Shown here piece by piece: positions 4,023 to 18,779 of a DNA stretch of 64,000 nucleotides (the stretch's first letter is position 1; every line of letters starts with the position of its first letter). Position numbers and translations under genes: made by a program. This stretch comes from an uncultured Chloroflexia bacterium. Lineage in GTDB: Bacteria > Chloroflexota > Limnocylindria > Limnocylindrales > CSP1-4. The stretch is taken from NCBI GenBank assembly GCA_963736545.1, contig CAVTPA010000001.1:1665660-1729659 (forward strand), read 5' to 3'. The notes under the pieces are model-generated. The model did no database searches and was not told where the DNA came from. It worked only from the letters and a program-made list of their open reading frames with translations.

Positions 4023-6854
4023 CTACTCGACCTCGAAGATCGCCGCCTCCAGCGCGCCGCCCATGCCGGGGTCCATGCCGTCCATCGGGTCGGCCGCAAG
4101 CGCCGTCCCCTCCGCGGGGACACACGAGAGCGCGTACGCGCCGGGCGTGTCGAGCGCGAAGCGGGCCGACTGCTCCTGGCCCGGGCGCGGGTTCAGCTCG
4201 ACCTTCGGAGCTCCCGGCAGCAGGCAGACGTACAGCGTGGCGGTGTCGTTCGTGAGGGTGACGAGCACCTGTTCGCCGGCCGCCACCCGGTAGGTGGGGG
4301 CGGGATCGCCCAGCGAGGAGGCGGCCACCGGCACCGGCACGGCGTTCGCGTCGAGCCAGCGGTTCACCCCGATGAAGCCCGCCGCGATCGCGACCGCGAT
4401 CCCCGCGATCACCGCGAGGTACGCCGCGTCCTTCACCCGCGTCCACGTCGCGTGGCGCGAGGCCGCCAGGACGGCTGCCGGCCGCGGGTCGTAGCCGCGA
4501 AGGCGGAGGGAGTTCGAGATGACCGACACCGACGAGAGGGCCATCGCCCCGGCGGCGAGCGCCGGGTTGAGCGTGATCCCGAAGGTCGGGTACAGGATCC
4601 CCATCGCGACCGGGATGAGGAGGACGTTGTAGGCGAAGGCCCAGAACAGGTTCTGGCGGATGACGGCCATCGTCCGCCGCGAGAGGGCGATCGCGGCGAC
4701 GACGCCGCGCGGATCGCCGCCGACGAGCGTGATGTCGGAGGCCTCGATGGCGACATCGGCGCCGGTCCCGATCGCCACGCCGAGATCGGCCGCGGCCAGC
4801 GCCGGTGCGTCGTTGATCCCGTCGCCGACCATGGCGACGACCTTGCCGCGGGCCCGCAGCTCCTCGACGACCGCCGCCTTGTCCCCGGGGAGCACCTGGG
4901 CCCGGACGCGCTCGACGGGGATCCCGACCTGGGCGGCGACGGACTCGGCGGTGGCCCGGTGGTCGCCGGTGACGAGCCAGGCTTCGATGCCGGCAGCTGC
5001 CAGCGCCCGCACGGCCTCGGCCGACTCCGCCTTGACGGGATCGGCGATCGCGAGCAGCCCGGCCGGCGCTCCGTCGACGGCGACGAAGACCGGGGTGTGG
5101 CCCTGCGCCGCATGGCCCTCGCCGGCGGCCCCCAGCTCGCCTAGGTCCACCCCGCGCTCGGCGAGGAAGCGGGCGCTGCCGACCAGGACGACACGGCCGT
5201 CGACGGTGGCCTCGGCGCCGCCGCCGGCCGTCGCCTCGAACGCGTCGCCGCCGGGGAACGCGAGGCCGCGGTCGCGTGCCGCCGCCAGGATCGCGCTCGC
5301 CAACGGGTGCTCCGAGCCGGCTTCGACGGCGGCGGCCAGGCGGAGGAGGTCGTCGGGGGCCAGCTCGCCGACGGGGACCACCTCGGCGACGGCCGGCTTG
5401 CCGCGCGTGAGCGTGCCCGTCTTGTCGAGGATCACCGCGGTCACGCGGTGGGCGTTCTCCAGGGCCTCGCCGCCGCGGACGAGGATCCCGGCCTCGGCGC
5501 CGCGCCCGGTGCCGACCATGATCGCGGTCGGCGTCGCGAGGCCCATCGCGCAGGGGCAGGCGATGATGACGACCGTGATGAAGGATGCGAGGGCGAGCGT
5601 GACCTTCGGCTCGGGCCCGAGGACGAACCAGAGCCCGAAGGTGAGCGCCGCGACGACGAGGACGATCGGCACGAAGATCCCGCTGATCCGGTCGGCCAGC
5701 CGCTGGATCGGGGCCTTGCTCCCCTGCGCGCGGCGGACCATCTCGACGATCTGGGCGAGGGCGGTCTCGCTCCCGACGCGGGTCGCCCGCATGACGAAGC
5801 TGCCGGTCGTGTTCAGGGTCGCCCCGATCACCTCGTCGCCCTTCGACTTCGTGACCGGCATCGCCTCGCCGGTGAGCATCGCCTCGTCGAGCGCGCTCGA
5901 GCCCTCGACGAGGACGCCGTCGACCGGCACCTTCTCGCCCGGGCGGACGCGCAGGAGGTCGCCCGGCTGGACCTGGTCGACCGGGATGTCGACGTCGCCG
6001 TCGGCCCGGACGACCCGGGCGGTCTTCGCCTGGAGCCCGACGAGCCGCCGGATCGCGCCGGTCGTGCGGCCCTTCGCCCGGCTTTCGAGCCACTTCCCGA
6101 GGAGGATGAGGCCGATGATGATCGTGGAGGAGTCGAAGTAGGTTTCGGCCGGGAGGCCGGCCCGCATGATCACCCCCGGGTACATCGTCACGAAGACCGA
6201 GTATCCCCAGGCCGCGCTCGTGCCGACGGCGACGAGCGTGCTCATGTTCGTGCCACCGTGGCGGGCCGTCCGCCAGGCCGCCTCGTAGAAGCGGCGCCCG
6301 GCCCAGAACTGGACGAACGTCGCCGGCCAGAGGGCCAGCCGGTTGACGTCGGCCATCGACAGCGGGAAGGGGCCGAACATCAGGACCATGATCCCGACCG
6401 CGACGCCGATGCTGACGGCCGACTGGATCCCGAGCTCGCGCTGCTCGCGGGCGCGCAGCCGCTCGGTCTCGTCGAGCTCCGAGTCGACGGCGGCGGTCCC
6501 GGTTGCGGCGGCCGCCGCTCGGCTGCCGCCGGCCGCCTGCGCCTCCGCCGCCTCGAGCGCGCCCGGGCGCACCTCGTAGCCCGCCTTCTCGATCGCCCCG
6601 ACGAGCTCGGCCCGCCCGACGGCGTCCGGCAGGAAGCGGATCGTGGCGACCTCGGTGGCGAGATTGACGTTCGCCTCGACGACGCCGTCCGTCTTGCGCA
6701 GGAATCGCTCGATCCGGTTGCTGCACGAGGCACACGTCATCCCGACGACCGGGAACGAGACCTCGGCCGGCTGCGCGGGGGACGCCGTGGCCGGGGCCGG
6801 CTCGACAGGCGGGCCCGGCTGGGCGAGTGGGGTGGTGGGGACGCTCGAGCTCAT
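4023..6854 (-). CDS. copA: copper-translocating P1B-type ATPase with an extra C-terminal TM helix and beta-sandwich (cupredoxin_1-like) domain
   Basis: N-terminal [18 protein letters not shown] motif ([13 protein letters not shown]), [15 protein letters not shown]. The last ~150 aa (nt 4023-4478) extend beyond the normal end of CopA. Confidence 0.9.
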
Positions 6855-7272: not shown

Positions 7273-7965
7273 ATGCCCGCCCGGGCGTCCGCCCGACGAT
7301 ACACTCCGGCGATGCCGAGCCTCGCCGGTCTGCCCGCCGCCGCGCACCGATCCGCCACGCAGCGATCCGCCGCGCCGGAGCCGGCCGCGGTCGCAGTGCT
7401 CGCGACGCCCGTCGGGCCCCTCCACGCCGCCGCGACCGGCGAGGGGATCATCGGGCTCGAGCTCCGGACCACCGACGAGGCCTTCGCCGCCTCGATCCGT
7501 GCACGCACGCGCCGCGCCATCGTGCCGGCGGCCGATCCCGCCGCGTCGCCCGCCGCCCGCGCCCACCTGGCCGAGCTCGAACGCGAGGTCGCCGAGCACC
7601 TGGCCGGGTCGCGCGACGAGTTCGCGGTGCCGGTCGTCCTCGAGGGCTGCTCGGAGTGGGATCGCCGGGTCCTCGAGGGAGTCCGGACGATCCCGCGCGG
7701 TGGGACCGCCTCGTACGGGGAGATCGCGCGGCGGATCGGTCGGCCGGGGGCCGCGCGCGCCGTCGGCGGCGCCGTCGGGCGCAACCCGGTCGGACTCCTC
7801 GTCCCCTGCCACCGGGTGATCGCCGGCGATGGGACACTCGGCGGCTACGGCGGCAGCTGGTTCGGCAGCCGTGAGGAGTTGCTGGGCTTGAAGGAGCGGC
7901 TGCTCGAGCTCGAGGGCGTGGTGCCGCCGCCCCGTTCGGCGCCCCGGTCGGTCGGTCGGCCGTGA
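7273..7965 (+). CDS. ogt: methylated-DNA--protein-cysteine methyltransferase
   Basis: Active-site PCHRVI and GGYGG motifs. The stop overlaps the next start (GTGA at 7962-7965). The exact start is uncertain (ATG 7273 or 7312). Confidence 0.85.
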   Translation: MPARASARRYTPAMPSLAGLPAAAHRSATQRSAAPEPAAVAVLATPVGPLHAAATGEGIIGLELRTTDEAFAASIRARTRRAIVPAADPAASPAARAHLAELEREVAEHLAGSRDEFAVPVVLEGCSEWDRRVLEGVRTIPRGGTASYGEIARRIGRPGAARAVGGAVGRNPVGLLVPCHRVIAGDGTLGGYGGSWFGSREELLGLKERLLELEGVVPPPRSAPRSVGRP

Positions 7966-8558
7966 CGATCCTGCGGGCCTACCGGCAGCTGCTCGGCAAC
8001 GGGCCGCTGACCCGTCTCCTCGTCGGCGAGTTCGTCTCGTCGATCGGCGACTGGCTCTACCTCGTGGCGATCCTCATCCTGGTCTACCAGGTCACCGAGG
8101 ACCCCTTCGTGCTCGGGCTCGTCGGTGCTGCCCGCGTCCTCCCCTACCTCTTCCTGTCGATCCCGGCCGGCATCGTCGCGGACCGGTTCGACCGCCGCCT
8201 CGTCCTCCTCTCGACCGACGTCGCCCGCGGGATCCTCATGCTCGTCATTGCCGCGGTGGTCTTCGTCGACGGGCCGATCTGGATCGTGATCGCGCTGGCG
8301 ATCGGCGGGACCTGCTTCGCCACGTTCTTCGGGCCGGCGATCGGCGCCTATCTGCCGACGCTCGTCGCCGACGAGGAGCAGCTGGGGCCGGCCAACAGCG
8401 CCTGGTCGACGCTCGACAACCTCGCCTTCATGATCGGGCCGGCGGTGGCCGGCATCCTCATCGCCACCGGCGGGCTCGTCATTGCCTTCCTCCTCAACGC
8501 GGCGAGCTTCGCCGTCATCGCGGTCGTCCTCTGGGGGCTTCCTCGCAGCCGGCCGGCC

Positions 8559-8593
8559 GACGCGCGACGGCGGCAGACGCGCCGACGGCGGCC
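8559..8593 (+). repeat. 17 + 18 nt tandem duplication (GACGCG-CGACGGCGGCA / GACGCGCCGACGGCGGCC); the missing C causes the first frame change
   Basis: Read directly. Restoring one C gives an in-frame DAPTAA-DAPTAA-PSDAPTT loop. Confidence 0.8.
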
Positions 8594-9499
8594 CCGAGCG
8601 ACGCGCCGACGACGAACCCGACCCACGAGCCCGCAACGGCGATCGAGCCACCGACGCCGGCGGGGGCGCGGGCAGGTATCCCCACGGCCGTGCTCCTGCC
8701 GGTCGTCGGGCTCGGGATCGTCGACGTCGTGGGGGCGATGGCCGGCGGCGGCCTCTCGGTCCTCACCGTCGTCATCGCGACGACCGAGCTCGGCGGTGGC
8801 GAGGAGGCAACCGGCTTCCTCAACGCCGGGATCGGGCTCGGCGGCTTCATCGGGGCGATCATCGCCGGGGCGCTCGTGCTGCGGCCCAGCCTCGTCCCGG
8901 TGCTCGTCGCCGGGTCGGTGGTCTACGGGGCCGGGCTCGCCGCGCTGGGCTACGCGCCGGCGCTCGGGATCGCGTTCCTGGCGATCGCCGTGGCGGCGGC
9001 GGGGAGCCTGCTCGTCGAGGTGACGAGCACGACGGTCTTCCAACGCGCCGTACCGGACGTGATCCGCGGCCGCGCGATCGGCATCCTCGGGACGATCTCG
9101 ATGGCCGCCTTCGCCGGCGGGTCGTTCCTCCTCCCGGTCGCGAGCGGCTATGTCGGCGTCGGTCCGGTGCTGCTGGCGACCGGGATCGCGATCGCCGCCG
9201 CCGGCGTCGTCGGGGCGATGCTGGCGGCCCCGGCGGCGCGTCGGAGCACGGGCTCGACGGCCGACGTCCGCGTCACGCGCCTCGCAGGCCTGCCGCTCTT
9301 CGCCGGCGTCCCGGCCGCCACGCTGGAGGCGATCGCGGTGAAGCTGGCACCGGTGGCGGTCGCGGCGGGCGCGGTCGTGATCCGCCAGGGCGAACCGGCC
9401 GACCGCTTCTACATCATCGAGGAGGGCCGGTTCGAGGTGACGCAGGTGCCCGAAGCGGGAGCGGAGGCGGCACCCGGCGCCGGCACGGCCGCGGCGGCC

Positions 9500-9555
9500 G
9501 GCCGTCCCGAGGCGGCCAGGCCGTCCCGAGGCGCCAGGCCGTCCCGAGGCGGCCC
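9500..9555 (+). repeat. 19 + 18 + 19 nt tandem repeat (GGCCGTCCCGAGGCG(G)CCA) encoding GRPEA(A/P); an extra G causes the second frame change
   Basis: Read directly. Unit 1 has GGCGGCCA where unit 2 has GGCGCCA. Confidence 0.8.
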
Positions 9556-10111
9556 TGCACCTCCGGACGATGGGCCCGGGCGAGGTCTTCGGCGAGATCG
9601 GCCTCCTCCGCTCGGTCCCCCGGACGGCGACTGTCACGGCCGGCACGGCCGGTCGGCTTCTCGCGCTGAACGGATCGGACTTCCTGGAGCTCGTCAACGC
9701 CGGCCCGCTCGTGCGACCACGCCTCATCGACCTCCACCGCGGCGGGTCCGGCGCCGGGTACTGATGGCCCGGACCGGCGGCTCCGGGGCACCCGCTCCGG
9801 GGCACCCGGCCCGGGGAGCAAGCTCGCCGTTTATCAGTCGCACGACTACGAGGCGCCCTCCAGGGGATAGCGGCGCGGCTCGAACGGCGGCGGACCTCGC
9901 GCTTCGCCATGATCGACCCGGGCGCGGAGCACGGGCGGAGCGAGACGCACCCATCCCGGAGTCGCATCCCGCTCTCCGACGGCGGAGAGAACGGTCGCGA
10001 TGGCCGATCTGTCTGGTCGCTAGTCATGGGGCTGATATCGACGCACGTTTGTCCCGGCCGGCGCCACCCAGCTGGGAGCACAGCCGCTCGGCCGGTGGGA
10101 GGCGCCGGGTA

Positions 10112-10200
10112 CGACCGGCCCGAGCCGCGCGGCGACCGACCGGCCCGAGCCGCGCGGCGACCGAGCGGCCCGAGCCGCGCGGCGACCGAGCGGCCCGCTC
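10112..10200. repeat. 25-bp tandem repeat x3.5 (CGA(C/G)CGGCCCGAGCCGCGCGGCGAC); each unit contains the palindrome GCCGCGCGGC
   Basis: Read directly. It ends 7 nt from the S8 peptidase stop codon, in the convergent intergenic region. Confidence 0.85.
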
Positions 10201-10207
10201 GGCTCCC

Positions 10208-11041
10208 CTACCGCGCCGGCGGCTCCGAGGCCGTCGCCGCGAGGATCGCCTTCACCTCGAACGGCGAGGCGTGCGGGTGAGCGGCCCGGATGAGCGCCGC
10301 GTAGCCGGCGACGTGGGGTGCCGCGAACGAGTTCCCCGTCGCGACGATCCGTCCGCCGTCGCGCCAGGCGACGTTCACGTCGACGCCGTAGGCCCCGAAC
10401 TCCACGGGCGGGTCCGGGTTGTAGAACCAGGCGTCGGGGTCGGCGAGGTCGTGCGCGGCGACCGAGACGACGGAGGCGAACAGCGACGGGTAGCTGTTCC
10501 CGGGGACGTTGTTGGCGGCGCAGACGAGGAGGACGTTGGCGAAGTAGGCCCGGTCGGCGAGATCGTGGAAGAGCCCGAAGAGCGCGTCGCTCTTCGACGA
10601 CAGGCTGAGGTTGACGACGCTCGCCCCCTGCTCGATCGCCCAGTCGAGGCCGGCCGCGAAGACGATCCCTTTGCCGCGGTTGTCGGGGCCGAGCACGCGC
10701 ACCGACACGATGTCGGCCTCCGGAGCGATCGCGTGGATGATGCCCGCGCAGGCCGTGCCATGCCCGACGACGTCGAGGCCGTCCGGGTCGTCGCCGATGA
10801 CGGGGTCGTCGGCCGGGTCGGGGGCCAGCTCCACCCGGACGCTCCGAATGAGCTTGCCGCCCACGGCCGGGTGGTCGCGCTCCACGCCCGAGTCGATGAC
10901 GGCGACCGTGACGCCGCGCCCGGCCGTGGCGCCGAGCGCCCACTCCCGGGTGACGCCGCCGAACGGCGAGCTGCGGCGCAGGTCGGCGAGACGATCCCCG
11001 ACGAACGGCTCGCTCCAGGCCGGAAGCAGGTCCCCGCTCAT
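10208..11041 (-). CDS. S8 (subtilisin-family) serine peptidase with no signal peptide
   Basis: Catalytic triad contexts VAVIDSGV (Asp), GHGTACAG (His) and GNSFAAPHVAG (Ser). ATGA overlap with the upstream GAF gene. Confidence 0.85.
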   Translation of the reverse strand: MSGDLLPAWSEPFVGDRLADLRRSSPFGGVTREWALGATAGRGVTVAVIDSGVERDHPAVGGKLIRSVRVELAPDPADDPVIGDDPDGLDVVGHGTACAGIIHAIAPEADIVSVRVLGPDNRGKGIVFAAGLDWAIEQGASVVNLSLSSKSDALFGLFHDLADRAYFANVLLVCAANNVPGNSYPSLFASVVSVAAHDLADPDAWFYNPDPPVEFGAYGVDVNVAWRDGGRIVATGNSFAAPHVAGYAALIRAAHPHASPFEVKAILAATASEPPAR

Positions 11042-11865
11042 CGCTCCGCTGCGCGGCGCCGGAGACCTCGGGGTCCGCGGGCGCCGGCACCGCTCGCCCG
11101 CGGTCCGCCGTCGCGCTCGGCCTGGCGGACGAGCACCGCGAGAAGCGCGGTCACGAGCTCAACCTGCTCGGGCGCAGCCCGGCGGAGCGCGGCCACCTGC
11201 TCCACGAGCGGCCAGAGCGGGTCGTCCGGACCCCCCACGTCGGCGACGGCTGCCTCGACGAGCGCGTCCACGCCGGCGGCCGGCGCGTCGTCGCCGGCGA
11301 GCGCCCCGAGGACGGCGCCGAGGAGCCCGGCCACGTCGCGCTCGACCCGGCTGGCCCGGATCGCAACCGACGCCTGGCGGGCGAAGACCCCCGCCAGCTC
11401 GACGTCGCGGATCGAGAAGGTCGCCTCGCTGCGCTTGTCGAGCACCTCGAGGACACCGATCGTGCCCCGGTCGTCGACGAGCGGGACCGCGACGATCGAA
11501 CGCGGGACGTACTGCGTCTGCTCGGCGAAGCTCCGCCCGAAGCGCGGGTCGCGGGCGACGTCGGAGATCGCGAGCGCCTGGCCGGTCGAGAACACGTAGC
11601 CGACGAGGCCGCGGTCGGGCGGGATCTCGAGGCCGACGACGCCCTGCCCCTGGGCGCCGGCGGCGACGCGGAAGACGAGGACGTTGCGCGCCGCGTCGAA
11701 GAGGGCGAGCGAGGCTGCCTCGGCCTCGAACAGGCTGACCGCGGCCGCCACGATCGAGCGGAGGACCGCCTCCGTTCCGCCGAGCTCGAGCCGGCGGGCG
11801 ATCTCGGCCCGGCGACCGATCGCGGCGAGCGCTTCGCGGGCCGCCGCGTCCCGCTCGGCCGTCAC
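11038..11865 (-). CDS. GAF domain protein with a helical C-terminal extension
   Basis: GAF-like core LVGYVFSTGQALAISDVARDPRF...VAVPLVDDRGTIGVLEVLDK. GTGA overlap with the upstream crp-family gene. Confidence 0.8.
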   Translation of the reverse strand: MTAERDAAAREALAAIGRRAEIARRLELGGTEAVLRSIVAAAVSLFEAEAASLALFDAARNVLVFRVAAGAQGQGVVGLEIPPDRGLVGYVFSTGQALAISDVARDPRFGRSFAEQTQYVPRSIVAVPLVDDRGTIGVLEVLDKRSEATFSIRDVELAGVFARQASVAIRASRVERDVAGLLGAVLGALAGDDAPAAGVDALVEAAVADVGGPDDPLWPLVEQVAALRRAAPEQVELVTALLAVLVRQAERDGGPRASGAGARGPRGLRRRAAER

Positions 11866-12566
11866 CGCTCGGCCGCGCGCTCGAGGCGCTCGAGGTCGGG
11901 GACGACGAGCGTGTCCTTCTCGATGCGGATGAGCCCCTCGGCAGCGAAGTCGGCGAGGAGGCGGTTCACCGTCTGGCGCGTCCCGCCGATCATCGCCGCC
12001 AGCTCCGACTGCGAGAACGGCCAGGAAAGGCGGACCTCGCCCTGCGCAGCAGGGTCGGCGTCGCGGGCCATCCGGACGATCCGCTGCGCCAGCCGGCCGG
12101 GCAGGTTGAGGAAGTGGAGCTCGCCGACGTGGTGCGTGAGGCGGCGCAGCTCTCCGACGACGCCGGCGAAGAGTGCCCGCCGGAGGTTCGGGTCCTCGTC
12201 GACGAGACGGTCGAAGGCCTCGCGACGGAGAACGAGCGCCTCCGTCGGCTCGAGGGCGACCGCTGTCGCCGAATGCTCCTCGCCGTCGAGGAGGGCGAGC
12301 TCGCCGAAGAAGTCGCCGGGCCCGAGCGTCGCGATGATCGCCCCCTCCTCGCCCTCGGGGTCCGGGAGGACGATCTTGACGGCGCCGCTCTCGATCACGT
12401 AGAGCGAGTCGCCGGGGTCCCCCTGGTGGAAGATCGTCTCGTTCCGACGGTAGCGCCGTCCGCGCAGCGAGCCCAGGCAGCGGGCGAGCGAGTCGTCGTC
12501 GACGCGTGAAAAGAGCATGCAGCGCCTGAGCGCCGCCGCGGCGTCAGCCCGTTGATCGGCCGCCAC
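11862..12566 (-). CDS. Crp/Fnr-family transcriptional regulator
   Basis: cNMP-binding fold (IFHQGDPGDSLYVIESGAVKI, FGELALL) plus a C-terminal HTH (RQTVNRLLADFAAEGLI). AGGAGGG lies 5 nt upstream of GTG 12566. Confidence 0.85.
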   Translation of the reverse strand: MAADQRADAAAALRRCMLFSRVDDDSLARCLGSLRGRRYRRNETIFHQGDPGDSLYVIESGAVKIVLPDPEGEEGAIIATLGPGDFFGELALLDGEEHSATAVALEPTEALVLRREAFDRLVDEDPNLRRALFAGVVGELRRLTHHVGELHFLNLPGRLAQRIVRMARDADPAAQGEVRLSWPFSQSELAAMIGGTRQTVNRLLADFAAEGLIRIEKDTLVVPDLERLERAAER

Positions 12567-12726
12567 TCCAACCCTCCTGGGTCATCCGGGTCGCATCGAT
12601 GCGCCGAATGCTACGGGCGGCAGGTCCACATCGCAATGCGTGAACGGCAACGGACGCACGCGACGAGGGCGGGCCCCCCGACCCGCCCCCGTCCAGGTGC
12701 GTGCTCGATCGGCGAAGGGTCGGGGC

Positions 12727-13428
12727 TCAGCCCTTGCGGGGATCCGACTTCTTCGTGTCGTTGACCAGGTTGCTCCGGGAGGTGGCCCGACGGATGTCGG
12801 CCTCCTTCGCCCTGGCCAGGTCACGGGCCAGCACCGGGTTCATCGTCCCGATCATGTGGCCCTCGACGTCGTCCTCGGTGGCGCGCGAGCTGATGACGCC
12901 CTCGGGCGCCTTCGAGCTGATCACGCCTTCCGGAGCCTTCGAGCTGATGACGCCTTCCGGCGCCCTCGAGCTGATGACGTGGCCCTCGACGTCGTCCTCG
13001 GTGGCGCGCGAGCTGATGACGCCCTCGGGCGCCTTCGAGCTGATCACGCCTTCCGGAGCCTTCGAGCTGATGACGCCTTCCGGCGCCCTCGAGCTGATGA
13101 CGTGGCCCTCGACGTCGTCCTCGGTGGCGCGCGAGCTGATGACGCCCTCGGGCGCCTTCGAGCTGATCACGCCTTCCGGAGCCTTCGAGCTGATGACGCC
13201 TTCCGGCGCCCTCGAGCTGATGACGTGGCCCTCGACGTCGTCCTCGGTGGCGCGCGAGCTGATGACGCCCTCGGGCGCCTTCGAGCTGATCACGCCGTCG
13301 GGACCCTTCGAGCTGATGACGCCTTCCGGCGCCTTCGCCAGCCGATGGCCCTCGACGTCGTCCTCGATCGCCTTCGGGTCATACCGCTGGAACACCCCTT
13401 CGGTGTCCATCTTCTTGTTCGTCGCCAT
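12727..13428 (-). CDS. hypothetical tandem-repeat protein (41-aa units built from 9-aa APEGVISS[KR] sub-repeats and EDDVEGH motifs)
   Basis: AGGAGG lies 8 nt upstream of ATG 13428. Third-position G+C is near 100 % on this strand. No signal peptide or TM helix. Confidence 0.6.
   Translation of the reverse strand: MATNKKMDTEGVFQRYDPKAIEDDVEGHRLAKAPEGVISSKGPDGVISSKAPEGVISSRATEDDVEGHVISSRAPEGVISSKAPEGVISSKAPEGVISSRATEDDVEGHVISSRAPEGVISSKAPEGVISSKAPEGVISSRATEDDVEGHVISSRAPEGVISSKAPEGVISSKAPEGVISSRATEDDVEGHMIGTMNPVLARDLARAKEADIRRATSRSNLVNDTKKSDPRKG
12856..13347. repeat. 123-bp tandem repeat: three identical copies (12856, 12979, 13102) plus one 120-bp diverged copy (13225)
   Basis: Read directly. 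Each unit contains three 27-nt sub-repeats (GAGCTGAT[GC]ACGCC...). Confidence 0.95.
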
Positions 13429-13531
13429 GGGGACCGTCCTCCTGCAGATCGAGCCAACCGGTGCACGACCGGTCAAGGGATGATGAGCGCGCGGCGACGG
13501 AAGGTAAAGGGGACGGTGCGACCGGTGAGGT

Positions 13532-13548
13532 GTCGCCTGGGCGACAGC
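13532..13548. promoter_or_regulatory. 17-nt element GTCGCCTGGGCGACAGC (palindromic core) about 100 nt upstream of the repeat-protein gene; identical copy at 14713-14729
   Basis: Exact 17/17 match between the two sites, both upstream of minus-strand genes. Confidence 0.3.
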
Positions 13549-13626
13549 TTCCGCACGGCGGGCGGCACGGCGTCTCGGACCTGAGGTGCCGGGACGAGGG
13601 GCGGGCCCCACGGTCGGGGCCGGCGG

Positions 13627-14034
13627 TCAGGGTCGCTGAACGGGCCGGATCGGGAAGACCCCGATGATCGTGGGGCTCACCGGGTCGAGCAGCAGCTCGT
13701 AGCCGACGTCGCCCTGGCGAATGAGCTCGCCGAGAAGCCCGCCCTCGCGAGTCGGCAGCCCGACGAACAGGCGCTTGCCGTGCACGTCGACGGGCGAGAC
13801 GTCGTCATCGGCGCCATTCAGGCCGAACCGACGCCGCAGCTCGTGGAGCGGCACGTAGGGGCGGCTCTTGATGAACCGTCGCAGCTGCGCCTGCGTACAG
13901 ACCGGTTGGGCATCGCTCCCGTCGGCGCCGCCGGCTCGCGCCGGGTCGGTCGCCGGGGCGGTCGGCGGCAGTGGGCGGGCGCCTTCATCCCCCCCGATCG
14001 GGCGGGACTCTGGCTGCAGGGCGGGCTCGGTCAT
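13627..14034 (-). CDS. hypothetical protein (disordered N-terminus and a compact C-terminal domain, possibly winged-helix-like)
   Basis: ATG 14034. The C-terminal 90 aa (QLRRFIKSRPYVPLHELRRRFGL...) have clean codon bias. The fold assignment is a guess. Confidence 0.4.
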   Translation of the reverse strand: MTEPALQPESRPIGGDEGARPLPPTAPATDPARAGGADGSDAQPVCTQAQLRRFIKSRPYVPLHELRRRFGLNGADDDVSPVDVHGKRLFVGLPTREGGLLGELIRQGDVGYELLLDPVSPTIIGVFPIRPVQRP

Positions 14035-14251
14035 GGATGGCAGCTCCGCGGCCCATGGCCGCGCACGTTCGAGGTCGGATGGCGGGCCGGGGACCCGCCG
14101 GTTGCGATCGATCATACCCCCGGCCCAGCGACGGTGCCGCCCGGGCGTTCGACTGCCGGGAGGCCGGCTTCCGGGTGCCCACGCACGACGCCGCCGCCCC
14201 GGAGGGCGGCGGCGCTGGAGCGCGTCGGGAGGGGCGGCGACGAGCCGGATG

Positions 14252-14557
14252 TCAGGCCCGGTGATGGCCGATGGCCGCCCGGTGGAAGTGCGCGTGCCGG
14301 AGCTGAACCGCCGCCCCGGCAACCCGGTGACCGGCGGCGCGGACGCGGTTCGCGGCGGCATGGCCGGCGGCGGAGGCCGACCGGCGCACGGCGGCGACAC
14401 GCAGCGCTGCGGCCGCGCGCACCCGCCCGGCCAGGACCGCGGGCCAAGATGCGCGGGCACCGCGGGCGTCGGCCTCGAGCGCGTTGGCGCGAGCTTCGGC
14501 AAGGTGATCGTCGATTCGGCCGGTGTTCTGCATCTCGACCGTGTAGTTGTTCCACAT
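14252..14557 (-). CDS. small ORF A (101 aa), member of a 3-copy paralogous sORF family in this window
   Basis: AAGGGAGAG Shine-Dalgarno 6 nt upstream of ATG 14557. The N-terminus MWNNYTVEMQNTGRIDDHLAEARANALEADA aligns with sORF C. Confidence 0.35.
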   Translation of the reverse strand: MWNNYTVEMQNTGRIDDHLAEARANALEADARGARASWPAVLAGRVRAAAALRVAAVRRSASAAGHAAANRVRAAGHRVAGAAVQLRHAHFHRAAIGHHRA

Positions 14558-14712
14558 CGGAGTCTCTCCCTTCGCGCTCCGGGCCCCAGTGCGTCCCCAC
14601 CCGGAGGCGCGGCCATCGTGCGCCCGACGGACGATGGAGCGGTAGCAGGAACGAGACCCCCGCGATGCCGCTCTCACGCCCTCCGGTGGGTCGCCGGGTC
14701 GCCGCGCGGAGC

Positions 14713-14729
14713 GTCGCCTGGGCGACAGC
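14713..14729. promoter_or_regulatory. second copy of GTCGCCTGGGCGACAGC, about 155 nt upstream of sORF A
   Basis: Exact match to 13532-13548. Confidence 0.3.
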
Positions 14730-14808
14730 CCGAGGGTCGGGCGTGCGACGTCGGCAGCGGCGGTCCGCGGGGGCGCCGTGACAGGCAGCCCCGGTGCGCG
14801 GGCGATCG

Positions 14809-15297
14809 CTAGCCCCGGCGATCGGGCGGCCAGGTCCCCATCACCTGGCGGAGAATCGCGAACTCGCCGACGTGGTACGCGGTGTGGTCGGCGACGAGGC
14901 GGATCTCGCGGAGGAGGGTGTGCCCCGGCGTGCCGGGGATCGGAGCGAGGAGGTCCGTTGCCGGGTCGGCCACGATGGCGCGGAGTGCCTCCTGGTCTGC
15001 CCGGATCCCCTCCAGCGTGGCGGAGAGGTCGGCCGCCGTCGCCGTCGCGTCGGGCGCGGGCCAGTACTCCTCGGGCCAGCTCGGCTCCAGGTACGCTCGG
15101 TTCGTGACGTACTCGAGGATGTCGTGCTGGGCGATCCGGATGTGCTCGAGCAGGTGCCACGGGGTGTACGAGACGTTCGGCGGGCGCATGTTGATGGCGT
15201 TCTCCGGGAAGGCGGCGACTGCCTCCTCGAGCGGCATGTGGGCGCCGTTGCCTGCCAGCAGCTCGAGGACCTGTTCGCGAAGGTGATCGACGGTCAT
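14809..15297 (-). CDS. DinB-family (DinB_2-like) four-helix-bundle protein
   Basis: 162 aa with His-containing helices (WHLLEHIRIAQHD, ADHTAYHVGE). ATGA overlap with the upstream cyclase gene. Confidence 0.75.
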   Translation of the reverse strand: MTVDHLREQVLELLAGNGAHMPLEEAVAAFPENAINMRPPNVSYTPWHLLEHIRIAQHDILEYVTNRAYLEPSWPEEYWPAPDATATAADLSATLEGIRADQEALRAIVADPATDLLAPIPGTPGHTLLREIRLVADHTAYHVGEFAILRQVMGTWPPDRRG

Positions 15298-18200
15298 CGC
15301 GGGTGTACCTCCAGGAAGAGCGTCGCGCCGCACGATCGAAGGATCTCCGACCCGCGCGCGGCGAGCGTATCCCCGTCGTCGCCCAGGCGCCGTTCGACGG
15401 CCGCGAGGTCGAGCAGGCACCGGCCGAGATCCAGCCGCCGGCCGAGCGTCTCGAGCCGCACGGCGGCGTCCGCGAGGAGGGGCCGCGCCCGCGCGGGGTC
15501 GGGCTCGAGCAGGCCGTCGGCCCAGGCGAGGAACGCGCGCGGCGGGACGTTCGACGAGGCGAGCAGGGCGAGACGATCGCGCGCGAGATGAGCCTCTGCC
15601 GGCCGACCGGCCCGGACCGAGGCGGCCACGCACTCGAAGAGCAGGACCTGGCCGAACCAGACCGAGAGCCGCTCGTCGCGCACGCCGCGGTGCGCCGCCG
15701 CAAGGATCGCCGCAGCCTCGTCGTCGCGGCCCTCGCCCATCGCGACGTAGCCGTCGACGATCCCCGTCACCTCCTCCACGTACGGGACGGACGTGATGTC
15801 GACGTGCTCGAGGAGAGCCCGGTACTCGCCGATCTGCTTGCGTGCAGGTTGCACGTGGCCGCGCACGCAGGCTGCGATCGCCGCAACGGCCCAGGTCCAG
15901 GCCGCGTCGCGGGAGTCGCCGGAGGTGTCGGCGGCCTCGCGGGCCGCGAGCAGCGGGGCGTCGACCTCGTCGAGCCGGCCGATCTCCCGCAGCAGGTACC
16001 CCAGGTTGAGCTGCGCGCGCGCCAGCTTGACGAGATTCCCTGCCCGCCCGGCGACGTCGATCGCCTCGCGGTTCAGGGCCTCGGCGCGCGTGTAGTCGCC
16101 GCTCACCTCGACGGCGGCCGAGAGCACCGCCTCGAGAGCGTCGAGCAGCAACGCCAGATCGCCGGCCGCCCGCGCGATCGCGAGCGCCTCGTCGAAGAGG
16201 CGGATGGTCTCGTCGCCGCGCCGCCTGGCGTGGAGCGTCCAGCCCAGCGAGATCGCCGCCCGCGCCTCGGCGGGCCGGTCGCCGACGCGGCCCGCGATCG
16301 CCGTCGCGCGCCGCAGGAGCGGCTCGGCCCGGTCGAGGTCGCCGCGTTCGAGGTAATGGCGGCCGAGCACGTAGAGGGCGAACCCGAGGTCGGCGCCATC
16401 GCCGAGCGGCTCGAGCCGGGCGATCGCCCGCTTCGCCAGGCGCCGCGTCTCCGGGGCGCCCTCCTCCCAGGTGAGCGCGCTCGCGATCGAGGCCTCGACC
16501 CGCCCGACGTCCGCCTCCTGACCTGTCCGCTCGTACCGCAGGAGCGCCTCGTTCCAGGCACCGACGACGTCGGGGACCGTGGCGATCCCGTCGGACGCCA
16601 TCGCGTAGGACTCCCAGAGCGGCGCGAGCTCGGCGTCGTCCCGCCCGATCCGCGCACCGAGGTCGAGGGCCGATCGCAGCCAGCCGACTGCCTCGCGCTG
16701 CTGCCAGAGGCGTCGCGCCCGCTCCCCGGCCGTCCGCGTCCAGCGGAAGGCCTCTTGCTCGATCGCCGGCCGCTGACCGTTCGCTTCGCCGAGGTCGTCG
16801 AGCCATCGGAGTGCCTGGAGGTGGTGCGTCGCGAGCAGCTCGGCGATCTCGTCGCGGCGCTCCCCTACCTGGACCTCGGCCCAATGCGCGGTGACCACGT
16901 GCTTCGACGCCCGGAGCGCCTTCGGGAGCGAATCGTAGGCGACGTCCCGGACGAGGATGTGGTGGAACGCGAACTCGGCCTCGCCCGACAGGCGGGACTC
17001 GGCGTGGCGGGTGACGAGCCCCATCGTTTCGAGGACCCCGAGCACCGCCGGGATGCGGTCTCGGCCGTCCGCGCGAAGCTCCTCGAGCGCCCCGAGCCAG
17101 AACGTCCGGCCGACGACCGAGGCGTCCTGGAGGAGCGCCTTCTCCTCGGCCGTCAGCGCGTCGAGGCGGGCCGCAAGGAGACCCTGGATCGTGCGCGGCA
17201 CCTCGAGCGTCTCGATCGGCGCGTCGAGCTCGAGGCGCCCTTCCTCCCCATGCCGGACGACACCGCGGTCGACGAGCATCCGCACGATCTCCTCGCAATA
17301 GAGCGGGTTGCCGGCGCCGGCATCGAGGACGAGCCGGGACAGCGCGGAGGGCAGGTGAGCGGCCATGAGGTCGCGCACCAGCTCGTCCGCGTCCGCCTCG
17401 CTGAGTGGATCGAGACGTACGACCGTCGCCGGCCGACGTCGCCGGCCCCCGCCGGCGCCCCACGTCGCCCGTCGCTCGAGAAGGTCCGGCCGCGCGAGCG
17501 CGAGCAGGAGGATCGGTGCCGTCGCCCATGCCGCGACGTGCTCCAGGAAGTCGAGGAGGCCGTCGTCTCCCCAGTGAGCGTCCTCGACGACGAGCACCAG
17601 GGGCGCGGCCGTCGCCATCCGTTCCAGGATCCGGCGCCAGGCGTCGAAGAGATCCTCCCGGCCGAAGCGCTGCTCGCCGCCGGCCCCGACGAGCGCGAGG
17701 AGGTGCGGCAGGAGGTGCGAGCCGCCGAAGAGCCGGTGGAGGGCGTCGCGCGCGCGCAGCTCGACGATCGCCGGTGCGTCGTCGTCCCGCACCCCGCACT
17801 CCGCCTTCATCACCTCCGCGAGGGCCGAGTACGGGACGTTCCCGTACGCGACGCAGCGGCCCCGGCGGATGCTCACCCGACCGTCGCCGCGCAAGAGGCC
17901 TCCCAGGAACTCGTGGGCGAGGCGCGACTTGCCGATCCCCGCCGGACCGACGACCGTCACGAGCTGCGGCCGTCCGCTCGTCCGGGCGTCGGCGAGCGCC
18001 CCCGCCAGGATTGACAGCTCCGCGTCGCGGCCGACGAGGTGCGCCTGCAACCGCAGCGGAGTGCGCACTCCCCGGACCGTGGGGCGAGCCCGGACGGCGC
18101 GCCACGCCGGAACCGGAGCAGCCTTGCCCCGGAGGTCCAGCGGCGGCAGCGCGTCGTACTCGAACAGCTCCGCGGTCGCCGCGTGTGCCGAGGGGCCGAC

Positions 18201-18779
18201 GACGACCTGCCCCGGCCCGGCCGCCTGCTCCAGGCGGGCGGCCGTGTTGACCGCGTCCCCGGTCAGCATCCGGTGCCGCGCCCCTCCGACGCGGTCGACG
18301 TCCACGAGGATGGCGCCGGTCTCGATCCCGATCCGGAGTGCGAGCGGCGGCCGGCCCTCGCCCTCGAGCTCGCGGGCGAGGGCGCCGATCTCGGCCTGGA
18401 CGGCGAGCGCCGAGCGGATCGCCCGCTCGGGGTCGTCCTCGTGGGCGACGGGCACCCCGAAGACGGCGAGGATCGCGTCGCCGATGAACTTCTCCAGGAG
18501 CCCGCCGTGGCGCTCGATCTCGCGCTCCGCGCGCTCGAAGGCCCGCTCGAAGAGAGCCTGGACGACCTCCGGGTCCTCCCGCTCGGCGAGCGCCGTCGAG
18601 CCCGCGACGTCGGCAAACAGGGCGGTGGCGAGCTTGCGCTCCTTGCGGCTCGGGAGCCCGGGGCCGGTCGGCGCAACCGGGGCCGACCCCGACACCGCAC
18701 CGAGCGCGGCCCCGCAGGAGGCGCAGAAGCGTGCCGACTCCGGCGCCTCGATACCGCACGATCCGCAGGGGCGCGTCAC
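15294..18779 (-). CDS. zinc-ribbon + class III adenylate/guanylate cyclase + AAA/STAND ATPase + TPR multidomain protein
   Basis: N-terminal CGSCG..CASCG. Cyclase motifs ATALFADVAGST, FIGDAILAVFG, GDAVNTAARLE. Walker A GPAGIGKS. Long TPR-like C-terminus with no LuxR HTH. Confidence 0.9.
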   Translation of the reverse strand: MTRPCGSCGIEAPESARFCASCGAALGAVSGSAPVAPTGPGLPSRKERKLATALFADVAGSTALAEREDPEVVQALFERAFERAEREIERHGGLLEKFIGDAILAVFGVPVAHEDDPERAIRSALAVQAEIGALARELEGEGRPPLALRIGIETGAILVDVDRVGGARHRMLTGDAVNTAARLEQAAGPGQVVVGPSAHAATAELFEYDALPPLDLRGKAAPVPAWRAVRARPTVRGVRTPLRLQAHLVGRDAELSILAGALADARTSGRPQLVTVVGPAGIGKSRLAHEFLGGLLRGDGRVSIRRGRCVAYGNVPYSALAEVMKAECGVRDDDAPAIVELRARDALHRLFGGSHLLPHLLALVGAGGEQRFGREDLFDAWRRILERMATAAPLVLVVEDAHWGDDGLLDFLEHVAAWATAPILLLALARPDLLERRATWGAGGGRRRRPATVVRLDPLSEADADELVRDLMAAHLPSALSRLVLDAGAGNPLYCEEIVRMLVDRGVVRHGEEGRLELDAPIETLEVPRTIQGLLAARLDALTAEEKALLQDASVVGRTFWLGALEELRADGRDRIPAVLGVLETMGLVTRHAESRLSGEAEFAFHHILVRDVAYDSLPKALRASKHVVTAHWAEVQVGERRDEIAELLATHHLQALRWLDDLGEANGQRPAIEQEAFRWTRTAGERARRLWQQREAVGWLRSALDLGARIGRDDAELAPLWESYAMASDGIATVPDVVGAWNEALLRYERTGQEADVGRVEASIASALTWEEGAPETRRLAKRAIARLEPLGDGADLGFALYVLGRHYLERGDLDRAEPLLRRATAIAGRVGDRPAEARAAISLGWTLHARRRGDETIRLFDEALAIARAAGDLALLLDALEAVLSAAVEVSGDYTRAEALNREAIDVAGRAGNLVKLARAQLNLGYLLREIGRLDEVDAPLLAAREAADTSGDSRDAAWTWAVAAIAACVRGHVQPARKQIGEYRALLEHVDITSVPYVEEVTGIVDGYVAMGEGRDDEAAAILAAAHRGVRDERLSVWFGQVLLFECVAASVRAGRPAEAHLARDRLALLASSNVPPRAFLAWADGLLEPDPARARPLLADAAVRLETLGRRLDLGRCLLDLAAVERRLGDDGDTLAARGSEILRSCGATLFLEVHPR

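What the first reader, a model, noticed from the sequence alone, without database searches (positions are those of the whole stretch)
12727..13428. Hierarchical perfect tandem repeats encode an EDDVEGH / APEGVISS[KR] repeat protein
Three 123-bp units are identical to the base and a fourth (120 bp) is diverged. Each unit is itself three 27-nt sub-repeats. The product (233 aa, cytoplasmic by sequence, with a good Shine-Dalgarno) is [EDDVEGH-VISSR-(APEGVISSK)x2-APEGVISSR]n, flanked by unique ends. The unique C-terminus (NPVLARDLARAKEADIRRATSR) resembles the N-terminal motif of the three small ORFs in this window. Perfect copies imply recent expansion or contraction, so the copy number is probably variable. 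I do not recognise the repeat as a described family.
Basis: seen in the sequence. Interest (0 to 1): 0.62.

Follow-up and report, generated by a model that had tools for sequence, protein, structure and literature searches.

The report
Crp-linked DDVEGH tandem-repeat disordered protein
The repeat is real and encodes an undescribed, probably disordered protein found so far almost only in soil and freshwater Chloroflexota (Limnocylindria); it displays an invariant seven-residue motif (DDVEGH) several times on fast-changing spacers and always sits beside a Crp-type regulator, a GAF protein and a cytoplasmic subtilisin-like protease.

Summary
The minus-strand ORF 13428->12727 (233 aa) contains three base-identical 123-bp units and one diverged 120-bp unit, each built of 27-nt sub-repeats.

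It is a genuine gene. The heptapeptide [E/D]DDVEGH is encoded by 51 different 21-mers in relatives, and metatranscriptome contigs cover this gene but not its neighbours. It has its own conserved promoter, Shine-Dalgarno site and terminator hairpin.

It belongs to a small undescribed family with no Pfam, NCBIfam or PDB match and only 128 representatives among 1.84 billion. Nearly all members come from Candidatus Limnocylindrales. The basic form is about 70 aa: a variable N-terminus, DDVEGH, then a basic helix. Many species have independently expanded the spacer-plus-motif unit, giving 1-14 copies, periods of 14-43 aa and often DNA-perfect units.

The gene almost always lies next to a Crp-GAF-subtilase (S8) cluster. 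A conserved palindrome, TGTCG-N6-CGACA, precedes DDVEGH genes.

My best reading is a Crp-controlled disordered protein whose DDVEGH motif is a docking or cleavage site, most likely for the co-encoded protease. That mechanism is inferred, not shown.

The claimed resemblance to three small ORFs has no statistical support. The exact copy number is not verified by reads.

The parts
13531..13546 (.). CRP/FNR-type palindrome TGTCGCCTGGGCGACA (TGTCG-N6-CGACA). It is centred about 30 nt upstream of the -35-like hexamer, roughly position -65.
   Evidence: It is conserved in the alignment of 24 upstream regions. It is the only exact match in the window. The loci hold 48 exact copies in 720 kb against 0-1 for control patterns, and 37 of the 48 lie 145-325 nt upstream of the first DxEGH motif of an ORF.
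13503..13508 (-). -35-like hexamer TTTACC
   Evidence: The conserved block CTTTACC appears in the upstream alignment.
13480..13485 (-). -10-like hexamer CATCAT, 17 nt after the -35-like hexamer
   Evidence: The conserved CA...T block appears at the same spacing in relatives. The generic sigma-70 scan did not call it, so it is an inference.
13438..13443 (-). Shine-Dalgarno AGGAGG, 9 nt before the ATG
   Evidence: A GGAG-type block is present in most relatives.
12727..13428 (-). ORF of the repeat protein (233 aa plus stop)
   Evidence: Homologues were found.
13366..13428 (-). Unique Lys-rich N-terminus, MATNKKMDTEGVFQRYDPKAI
   Evidence: The M-x-x-K-K type start is shared by relatives.
13345..13365 (-). 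First EDDVEGH motif. The other four are at 13225-13245, 13102-13122, 12979-12999 and 12856-12876.
   Evidence: D, V, E, G and H are invariant in the family alignment. The motif is encoded by 51 different 21-mers.
13225..13344 (-). Diverged 120-nt unit, RLAK-(APEGVISSK)(GPDGVISSK)(APEGVISSR)-ATEDDVEGH
12856..13224 (-). Three base-identical 123-nt units. Each reads VISSR-(APEGVISSK)x2-APEGVISSR-ATEDDVEGH.
   Evidence: The perfect tandem junction is seen as a 153-nt unitig in runs X1, X3 and X4.
12730..12855 (-). Conserved basic C-terminal domain (42 aa, pI 10.9). The predicted helix is encoded by 12748-12837.
   Evidence: It is conserved across the family. AlphaFold2 predicts a helix at residues 198-227 with pLDDT about 60-73.
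12662..12693 (-). Terminator-like hairpin with a 14-bp G+C-rich stem, 34 nt after the stop codon
   Evidence: A comparable perfect hairpin follows the stop in 57 of 59 family members, with different stem sequences. One metatranscriptome contig ends at 12691.
11862..12566 (-). Crp/FNR-family regulator (cNMP_binding + HTH_Crp_2), next gene downstream
   Evidence: Pfam. It is adjacent to the repeat gene in about 55 of 59 genome loci.
11038..11865 (-). GAF-domain protein. Its start overlaps the Crp stop.
   Evidence: Pfam. Synteny.
10208..11041 (-). Subtilisin-like S8 peptidase (277 aa) with no signal peptide or prodomain. Its start overlaps the GAF stop.
   Evidence: Pfam. NCBIfam gives only sub-threshold hits to mycosin and QhpE. 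It aligns to mature subtilisin BPN' residues 22-246. The sequence read shows D, H and S in the subtilase motifs.
13627..14034 (-). Upstream gene ('up', 135 aa): a disordered N-terminus plus a nearly invariant 90-aa domain with a winged-helix-like fold
   Evidence: 2951 homologue clusters and no Pfam match. AlphaFold2 gives pLDDT about 90 for residues 45-130. The Foldseek hits are all winged-helix regulators but weak, with E >= 0.3. It lies upstream of the repeat gene in most loci.

Best explanation
Shown. The region is a real, separately transcribed gene for a 233-aa cytoplasmic protein of an undescribed family almost confined to Limnocylindria. The protein is predicted to be disordered except for a basic C-terminal helix. 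Its only conserved elements are the short linear motif [D/E]DDVEGH and that helix. The spacers, here (APEGVISS[KR])n, are species-specific. They have been duplicated together with the motif recently and independently in many lineages.

Strongly inferred. The gene is a direct target of the neighbouring Crp/FNR-family regulator through the conserved TGTCG-N6-CGACA site upstream of its promoter.

Inferred, weaker. DDVEGH is a docking or cleavage motif for a partner encoded in the same conserved cluster, most probably the prodomain-less cytoplasmic subtilase that is translationally coupled to a GAF sensor protein. On this reading the array is a multivalent substrate or decoy. The number of motifs sets how many sites, and how much C-terminal helix or peptide, each molecule offers. 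Slippage or unequal recombination between the perfect units changes that number quickly.
For: - Coding and selection: GC3 is 0.92. Fifty-one synonymous DNA versions encode the heptapeptide. The C-terminal domain shows the highest synonymous share in this frame.
- Family anatomy. About 25% of recovered members have one motif, and the median length is 94 aa.
- Disorder plus one helix.
- Rapid, independent expansions: DNA-perfect units with periods of 14-43 aa in many species. The unit pattern differs in a relative at 97% identity and in run X2.
- Own transcription unit: a conserved promoter block and operator and a terminator hairpin in 57 of 59 members. Metatranscriptome contigs from four runs cover only 12691-13419 and not the neighbours.
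- Linkage to Crp-GAF-S8: it holds in about 55 of 59 genome loci, in several gene orders and orientations, including a distant single-motif member transcribed divergently from Crp.
- Other DDVEGH-bearing proteins (types B and C) occur in the same clusters behind the same palindrome.
- Protease: a complete subtilisin catalytic domain with no signal peptide or prodomain. Its nearest curated models are peptide-processing or dedicated proteases, namely mycosin, QhpE and more weakly PatA/G.
- Precedent: QhpE is a cytoplasmic subtilisin-like enzyme encoded with its single substrate (PMC7876137). Cyanobactin precursors carry repeated short protease recognition sequences around hypervariable cassettes (PMC4663559).
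Against: - No experiment or structure links DDVEGH to the protease. The link rests on conserved neighbourhood and analogy.
- The protease scores below every curated family cut-off.
- The GAF protein, the winged-helix 'up' protein or Crp itself could equally be the partner.
- Crp binding to the palindrome is inferred only from its 5-6-5 architecture and its position.
- In the window's lineage the canonical phosphate-binding Arg of the cNMP pocket is His, so the ligand is uncertain.
- The transcript strand could not be read from contigs.
- The number of identical units is not verified.
Confidence: 0.4

Rival explanations
1. The basic C-terminal helix is the effector, for example a binder of nucleic acid, the ribosome or a regulator. 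The acidic DDVEGH/spacer region acts only as an intramolecular mask or entropic tail. On this reading the motif is not a protease site, and repeat number tunes the masking.
For: The acidic region (pI 4.8) and the basic helix (pI 10.9) have opposite charge. The helix is conserved and DDVEGH always abuts it directly. Single-motif, 70-aa forms are common.
Against: It does not explain why seven residues are invariant when any acidic stretch would mask. It also does not explain why type B and C proteins keep DDVEGH without the helix, or why the motif together with its spacer is the unit that gets amplified.
Confidence: 0.2
2. Metal binding. The Asp/Glu/His motif chelates a divalent cation, and the array acts as a cytoplasmic metal buffer or chaperone.
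For: The invariant residues are acidic side chains plus His. A heavy-metal P-type ATPase gene lies about 6 kb away (4023-6854) and also in L001.
Against: There is only one His per motif, no Cys, and one motif per 14-43 residues. Known His-rich chaperones use dense His or Cys clusters (my own knowledge). The ATPase is not seen within the fetched flank of the more distant locus L003. The conserved neighbours are regulatory and proteolytic, not metal-handling.
Confidence: 0.12
3. A RiPP-like multi-cassette precursor, analogous to cyanobactins. DDVEGH would be the protease recognition sequence, and the variable spacers would be released as peptide products.
For: Conserved short motifs flank hypervariable cassettes in tandem, next to a subtilisin-like protease. 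This matches the PatE logic (PMC4663559). There is a weak PatA/G-family hit with E = 1e-7.
Against: No modifying enzyme, macrocyclase domain or exporter is conserved in the cluster. The spacers are hydrophilic low-complexity sub-repeats. About a quarter of recovered members have one motif and therefore no cassette between motifs. The conserved 'follower' helix is unlike known leaders. The PatA/G score is 31 bits against a cut-off of 421.
Confidence: 0.08
4. A hydrophilin or LEA-like stress protectant. The repeats provide a bulk hydrophilic, disordered polymer, and the neighbourhood is only a regulatory context.
For: The protein is disordered, hydrophilic and repetitive. It appears in metatranscriptome contigs from sediment, river and soil samples.
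Against: An invariant heptapeptide, and a strict link to a protease/GAF cluster across several gene orders, are not expected for a bulk protectant. There is no LEA or KGG-type Pfam match.
Confidence: 0.08
5. An artefact or the wrong strand. The array would be an assembly expansion or non-coding, or the plus-strand ORFs (12640-13584, 12701-13483) would be the real products.
For: The repeat unitig depth is only 1.1-2.6 times the flanks where 3.4 times is expected. The window's MFS gene is split over three frames, so the assembly may carry indel errors. Antisense frames are open, as is usual at 74% G+C.
Against: The perfect tandem junction is present in three independent runs. The same gene type occurs in 59 other genomes. 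Variation in the motif codons is synonymous only. Promoter, SD and terminator are oriented for the minus strand. The plus-strand frame with high GC3 has GC1 < GC2.
Confidence: 0.02

Closest known systems
Cyanobactin precursor peptides (PatE) processed by the subtilisin-like proteases PatA and PatG
   Same: Both have short conserved acidic recognition sequences repeated in tandem around hypervariable cassettes. Both are encoded beside a subtilisin-family protease. In both, the cassettes turn over quickly between strains (PMC4663559).
   Different: This cluster has no heterocyclase, prenyltransferase, macrocyclase/DUF domains or N-terminal leader. The conserved part here is one motif plus a C-terminal helix. 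The spacers are hydrophilic sub-repeats. Many members have a single motif. The protease scores far below the PatA/G model.
QhpE and QhpC (a dedicated cytoplasmic subtilisin-like protease and its co-encoded substrate)
   Same: Both involve a small, prodomain-less, cytoplasmic S8 enzyme encoded with a presumed dedicated substrate under one regulator (PMC7876137). QhpE is the second-best curated model for the window's protease.
   Different: The score of 104.6 bits is below the 165-bit cut-off. There is no radical-SAM QhpD, no QhpG and no dehydrogenase subunits. The candidate substrate here is a repeat protein, not a Cys-rich subunit.
Multivalent disordered linker proteins with tandem short motifs (for example EPYC1 and CsoS2) - from my own knowledge, not tested here
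   Same: These are near-identical tandem repeats that each carry one short binding motif in an otherwise disordered chain.
   Different: There is no sequence relation, and no carboxysome, Rubisco or compartment genes lie nearby. The context here is regulatory and proteolytic.
CRP/FNR regulons with 5-6-5 palindromic operators (E. coli CRP site TGTGA-N6-TCACA) - from my own knowledge
   Same: The operator is a 16-bp palindrome with 5-bp arms and a 6-bp spacer. It lies upstream of the -35 region, next to a Crp-family gene.
   Different: The half-site is TGTCG, not TGTGA. Binding, effector and the sign of regulation are untested. In the window's regulator the pocket Arg is replaced by His.

Membership tests
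TubC_N docking domain (Pfam PF18563) | One contiguous match to the ~52-residue docking domain, significant on its own and shared by homologues | tested here: not met
   The whole-protein score is 34.4 bits, but no single stretch is significant and only profile positions 22-43 match. Only 1 of 23 family members hits the model. The score is a sum over the species-specific PEGVISS spacer.
Cyanobactin precursor / PatA-PatG system | Protease reaching the PatA/PatG family score (TIGR03895 cut-off 421 bits) | tested here: not met
   30.8 bits.
Cyanobactin precursor / PatA-PatG system | Cluster encodes two proteases plus tailoring enzymes, and the precursor has an N-terminal leader with RSI-RSIII | tested here: not met
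   The conserved neighbours are only 'up', Crp, GAF and one S8. The conserved part of the protein is C-terminal.
QhpE-type dedicated subtilisin-like protease | NCBIfam NF049966 score of at least 165 bits, and a qhp operon with the radical-SAM QhpD and QhpC | tested here: not met
   104.6 bits. No radical-SAM gene or QHNDH subunits were found among the neighbours that were scanned.
Subtilase (Peptidase_S8), neighbour gene | Pfam PF00082 above cut-off, with Asp, His and Ser catalytic motifs present | tested here: met
   107.4 bits against a cut-off of 21.8. VIDSGV, GHGTACAG and GNSFAAPH are visible in the sequence. It aligns to subtilisin BPN' residues 22-246.
CRP/FNR-regulated promoter | A palindromic 5-6-5 operator conserved upstream of the promoter, and enriched upstream of the co-regulated genes | tested here: met
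   48 exact sites in 720 kb against 0-1 for controls, and 37 of them lie upstream of DxEGH ORFs.
CRP/FNR-regulated promoter | The regulator binds the site and changes transcription | not testable with these tools
   This needs EMSA, footprinting and reporter assays.
Intrinsically disordered tandem-repeat protein carrying a short linear motif | No predicted fold in the repeat region, with conservation limited to a short motif while the spacers vary | tested here: met
   pLDDT is below 50 over most of residues 1-190. Only D, V, E, G and H are invariant in the repeats. The spacers differ in every species.
LEA / hydrophilin / KGG stress proteins | Match to the corresponding Pfam repeat families | tested here: not met
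   No such hit for the window protein or for 46 relatives.
Known RNA family on either strand | An Rfam match | tested here: not met
   No match at E <= 1 in 12300-14800.

The most novel reading that the evidence does not exclude
DDVEGH arrays could be bacterial polyprotein-like substrates of a signal-gated cytoplasmic subtilase, under GAF and Crp control. Cleavage at each motif would release many copies of a short peptide and one basic helix. Repeat number would then be an evolvable dose control. This would be a prokaryotic counterpart of prohormone or alpha-factor processing, used for intracellular regulation.
Probability: 0.15. Interest if true: 0.8.

Novelty: new variant of a known kind. 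Interest (0 to 1): 0.55.

Why it matters
Limnocylindria are abundant in soils and fresh waters, are uncultured, and have almost no characterised genes. This work defines a lineage-wide module that has not been described:
- a Crp-family regulator with a recognisable operator;
- a GAF protein;
- a prodomain-less cytoplasmic subtilase;
- a winged-helix-like protein;
- one to three proteins that share an invariant heptapeptide.

If the motif is the handle of the protease, the module would be a clear case of regulated cytoplasmic proteolysis by a subtilase with a built-in, rapidly evolving multivalent substrate. It could be tested directly with recombinant proteins.

The arrays also offer a natural series, from 1 to 14 copies with DNA-perfect units, for studying how the copy number of a short linear motif evolves by slippage in bacteria. 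They are a practical warning for assemblies and gene callers as well: many MAG copies are frameshifted.

Tried and rejected
- Pfam, NCBIfam, PADLOC and PDB sequence searches with the protein and with family alignments gave nothing real. The TubC_N, OorD and GMP-synthase hits are repeat-summed noise.
- Rfam found no RNA family in the region.
- A full-text literature search for DDVEGH, DVEGH and EDDVEGH found only unrelated peptides.
- A search for paralogues of the C-terminal domain in the six-frame window found none. The three small ORFs form their own family.
- The EF-hand idea (my own reading of the sequence): the D-x-D-x-D-G spacing and the hydrophobic position 8 do not fit and are not conserved. 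I dropped it.
- Resemblances to the translational-GTPase D-x-x-G-H motif and to the subtilase DxxGHGT catalytic-His motif are too short to mean anything. I did not pursue them.
- The Pup/UBact idea for the '...S[RK]GE' C-termini of type B relatives: the literature search was uninformative, no ligase genes were seen, and the window lacks type B. I left it as a lead.
- Nanopore runs holding the locus: none could be listed. Other short-read runs do not resolve the array.
- The generic sigma-70 scan finds no promoter. The promoter proposal rests on conservation.
- The 5'-UTR fold is not more stable than shuffles.
Full report

Yes. Tandem Repeats Finder reports a 123-bp period over 12856-13366 (4.2 copies, 97% matches, score 945), with nested 27-bp periods. 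Comparing the minus-strand ORF with itself at lag 123 gives a perfect match over about 444 nt.

In protein terms the product reads as follows:
- a unique N-terminus, MATNKKMDTEGVFQRYDPKAI;
- EDDVEGH;
- one diverged 40-aa unit (13225-13344);
- three units of 41 aa that are identical at every base (13102-13224, 12979-13101, 12856-12978), each VISSR-(APEGVISSK)x2-APEGVISSR-ATEDDVEGH;
- a unique 42-aa C-terminus.

The ORF 13428->12727 is 233 aa, and AGGAGG lies 9 nt upstream of the ATG.

Independent short-read assemblies from three runs contain a 153-nt unitig, which equals 123 + k-1. They also contain flank contigs that stop 30 nt into the array. Together these are the signature of a perfect tandem junction.

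The exact number of identical units is not verified. The unitig depth is 1.1-2.6 times the flanks, whereas a 444-nt periodic tract predicts about 3.4 times. No long-read run could be listed.

**2. Is it a gene, and on which strand?**

The window has 74% G+C, so every frame is open and ORF length proves nothing. Several independent observations point to the minus-strand frame.
- GC by codon position is 0.61/0.50/0.92 in this frame. The competing plus-strand frame has GC1 < GC2.
- In 62 related loci the heptapeptide [E/D]DDVEGH is encoded by 51 different 21-mers that differ only at synonymous sites.
- In the non-repetitive C-terminal domain of 25 orthologues, the share of synonymous codon differences is highest in this frame: 0.33, against 0.08-0.29 in the other five.
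- A conserved promoter block, Shine-Dalgarno site and terminator hairpin are all oriented for this strand.
- Metatranscriptome contigs from four runs of three studies cover 12691-13419 and none of the neighbouring genes. Contigs do not give the strand.
- Rfam finds nothing on either strand.

**3. What family is it?**

Nothing described. The Pfam TubC_N hit (34 bits) has no individually significant stretch and occurs in only 1 of 23 relatives, so it is a sum over the PEGVISS spacer. NCBIfam, PADLOC and PDB give nothing. The motif does not appear in the literature library in any relevant context.

Database searches recover a small family:
- 28 proteins with the window protein as query;
- 232 with a profile;
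- 128 representatives among 1.84 billion in an exhaustive HMM search.

Every source calls them 'hypothetical'.

A scan of one genome per species found 59 loci. Nearly all are in Chloroflexota MAGs labelled Candidatus Limnocylindrales or uncultured Chloroflexia.

The common plan is:
- a Lys-rich start;
- one or more modules of variable spacer plus [A/V][T/V][E/D]DDVEGH;
- then x-I-G-x-M-N-P-x-L-A-R-[D/E]-L-A-R-A-[K/R]-E-R-D-[I/V]-Q-R...R-K, a basic helix.

The simplest and most widespread form is a 62-90-aa protein with a single motif. Among 248 recovered proteins, 63 have one motif, 100 have two and only 4 have five or more. The window protein is therefore an expanded member.

AlphaFold2 with the family alignment predicts no structure for residues 1-197 (pLDDT about 45-50) and one helix at 198-227. 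The repeat part is acidic (pI 4.8) and the tail basic (pI 10.9). There is no Cys or Trp and only five His, all of them in the motif.

**4. Dynamics of the array**

PEGVISS is not a family feature. Each species has its own spacer and period (14-43 aa) and between 1 and 14 motifs. In many species the units are 99-100% identical at the DNA level (L006, L007, L009, L014, L015, L017, L018, L020, L024, L026, L027, L039, L044). So the spacer-plus-motif unit has been amplified or homogenised recently and independently in many lineages, while the heptapeptide stays fixed.

Locus L063 is 97% identical to the window over 6.2 kb. It carries six motifs spaced 120, 123, 123, 69 and 66 nt, whereas the window has five motifs spaced 120, 123, 123 and 123 nt. 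Run X2 also holds a 69-nt unit, which is two 27-nt sub-repeats shorter.

The mechanism, slippage or unequal recombination between perfect units, is an inference.

**5. Genomic context**

In the window the gene is followed on the same strand by three translationally coupled genes:
- a Crp/FNR-family regulator (11862-12566);
- a GAF protein (11038-11865);
- a 277-aa subtilisin-like S8 peptidase (10208-11041). It has intact catalytic motifs and no signal peptide or prodomain.

It is preceded by a 135-aa gene (13627-14034). The C-terminal 90 residues of that protein are nearly invariant in 2951 homologue clusters and fold with high confidence into a winged-helix-like domain. The Foldseek hits are only weak.

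tblastn of these neighbours against the fetched loci shows the repeat gene next to Crp-GAF-S8 in about 55 of the 59 genome loci. The neighbours are 75-94% identical while the repeat protein is only 30-55% identical.

The gene order varies:
- the repeat gene upstream on the same strand;
- between Crp and GAF;
- convergent with S8;
- divergent from Crp in a distant single-motif member.

That variation argues for functional linkage rather than inherited linkage.

Many clusters carry further DDVEGH proteins just beyond S8. Type B has repeats ending in '...RSPSS[RK]GE'. Type C has DDDVSGH plus EDDVEGH. The window has neither.

**6. Regulation**

Aligning 24 upstream regions reveals three conserved elements:
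- a palindrome TGTCG-N6-CGACA (window 13531-13546);
- a block CTTTACC about 22 nt after the palindrome (its TTTACC at 13503-13508);
- a CAT-type -10-like element (CATCAT in the window, 13480-13485), 17 nt further on.

The exact palindrome occurs 48 times in 720 kb of fetched loci, against 0-1 times for five control patterns. Thirty-seven of the 48 lie 145-325 nt upstream of the first DxEGH motif of an ORF, including type B and C genes. Most of the others precede the small-ORF/'up' operon.

The 5-6-5 architecture is that of CRP/FNR operators (my own knowledge), and a Crp-family gene is always adjacent. I therefore infer that the DDVEGH genes form the local regulon of this regulator. The site is centred near -65, a position more typical of activation than of repression. 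That reading is inferred, not shown.

In the window's regulator the canonical phosphate-binding Arg of the cNMP pocket is His, whereas roughly half of the orthologous sequences keep Arg. The effector is therefore uncertain.

A perfect G+C-rich hairpin follows the stop codon in 57 of 59 members, with different stem sequences. In the window it lies at 12662-12693. Together with the metatranscriptome coverage, this indicates a monocistronic unit, possibly more strongly expressed than its neighbours.

**7. How it most likely works**

Shown:
- a predicted-disordered, cytoplasmic protein;
- one invariant short linear motif displayed 1-14 times;
- a conserved basic helix;
- strict linkage to Crp, GAF, S8 and 'up'.

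Inferred: the motif is recognised by a cluster-encoded partner. I favour the subtilase, for four reasons.
- It is the only enzyme in the cluster.
- It is cytoplasmic and lacks a prodomain.
- Its nearest curated models are dedicated processing proteases: mycosin, QhpE and, weakly, PatA/G.
- Two precedents fit. QhpE is encoded with its single substrate (PMC7876137). Cyanobactin precursors repeat short protease recognition sequences around hypervariable cassettes (PMC4663559).

On this view the array is a multivalent substrate or decoy whose valency evolves quickly, and the GAF protein gates the protease. My confidence in this mechanism is about 0.3. Confidence in the descriptive and regulatory parts is much higher.

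Rivals:
- The helix is the effector and the acidic part a mask (0.2).
- Metal binding (0.12).
- A RiPP-like precursor (0.08).
- A bulk hydrophilin (0.08).
- An artefact or the wrong strand (0.02).

**8.

The 'three small ORFs' are 14252-14557, 20827-21060 and perhaps 20025-20516, all on the minus strand. They share an N-terminal xxTTxxQxxGRIxDxxAEARAxxLxAEA motif. Their similarity to the C-terminus of the repeat protein is only compositional; phmmer gives nothing below E = 0.7.

Two of them do have one-mismatch copies of the palindrome upstream of their starts: 14712-14727 about 155 nt upstream, and 21214-21229 about 154 nt upstream. Homologues in other loci have exact copies. They may therefore belong to the same regulon.

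**9. Novelty and verdict**

The repeat is real and coding. It belongs to an undescribed, lineage-restricted family embedded in an undescribed conserved module. The function is unknown, but the module yields sharp predictions that can be tested cheaply. I rate interest at 0.55. I file it as a new variant of a known kind: a tandem short-linear-motif protein, possibly a dedicated protease substrate, under a CRP-type regulator.

Noticed in passing
L023 9487-10221(-), L026 9058-9573(-), L034 9465-9929(-), L040 8991-9503(-), L044 6985-7491(-), L051 8874-9608(-), L060 5166-5579(-): A second class of DDVEGH repeat proteins ('type B') sits convergent to the S8 gene. These proteins lack the basic helix and end in a conserved C-terminus '...[RK]SPSS[RK]GE'. 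A conserved terminal Gly-Glu recalls the C-terminus of Pup-like modifiers (my own knowledge). No ligase genes were seen, and the window has no type B gene.
   Followed up: partly
L014 9198-9767(-), L015 8977-9255(-), L013 9217-9876(-), and similar places in L010, L016, L017, L020, L021, L025, L028, L030, L031: A third class ('type C') reads M-x-DRDE-x-RPDGL...DDDVSGHGMPEIPG...TEDDVEGH. Some members carry a longer helical C-terminal extension. These genes are also just beyond S8, and in several loci an exact TGTCG-N6-CGACA palindrome lies beside them.
   Followed up: partly
window 13627-14034 (-): This gene encodes a 135-aa protein. Its C-terminal 90 residues (CTQAQLRRFIKSRPYVPLHELRRRFGLNG.DDDV...GVFP.RPVQRP) are nearly invariant across 2951 homologue clusters and have no Pfam family. 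The predicted fold is winged-helix-like, but the Foldseek matches are weak.
   Followed up: partly
window 14252-14557 (-), 20827-21060 (-), 20025-20516 (-); near-palindromes at 14712-14727 and 21214-21229: These small ORFs share an N-terminal motif xxTTxxQxxGRIxDxxAEARAxxLxAEA. Two of them have a one-mismatch copy of the Crp-like palindrome about 155 nt upstream of their start, and homologues in L001, L004, L005, L007 and L008 have exact copies. They may belong to the same regulon.
   Followed up: partly
window 7962-9761 (+): The MFS_3 + cNMP-binding transporter gene is one 580-aa ORF in L001. In the window it is split over three frames (7962-8552, 8687-9445, 9534-9761). Either it is a pseudogene or the window's assembly contains indel errors, which matters for trusting exact repeat counts.
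   Followed up: partly
window 10112-10197: A 25-bp tandem repeat (CGACCGGCCCGAGCCGCGCGGCGAC, 3.4 copies, 98% identical) lies in the intergenic region just downstream of the S8 stop codon.
   Followed up: no
window 15294-18779 (-): A large adenylate/guanylate cyclase-AAA-TPR protein with an N-terminal zinc ribbon lies about 2 kb upstream of the repeat gene. Paralogous cyclase genes turn up at varying positions in several related loci. It is a possible source of the nucleotide signal for the Crp and GAF proteins.
   Followed up: no
L004, L008, L016, L018, L030, L035, L036, L051, L052, L063 (repeat genes): In many long-read MAGs the DDVEGH gene is broken by frameshifts inside the array: EDDVEGH reads as PRTTSRAT in the shifted frame. 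Gene callers therefore report truncated or chimeric proteins for this family.
   Followed up: partly
window 11862-12566 (-), residue His in 'DGEEHSATAV': The Crp-family regulator of the window's lineage has His where the canonical phosphate-binding Arg of the cNMP pocket lies. Roughly half of the orthologous sequences keep Arg. This raises the question of whether the ligand is still a cyclic nucleotide.
   Followed up: partly
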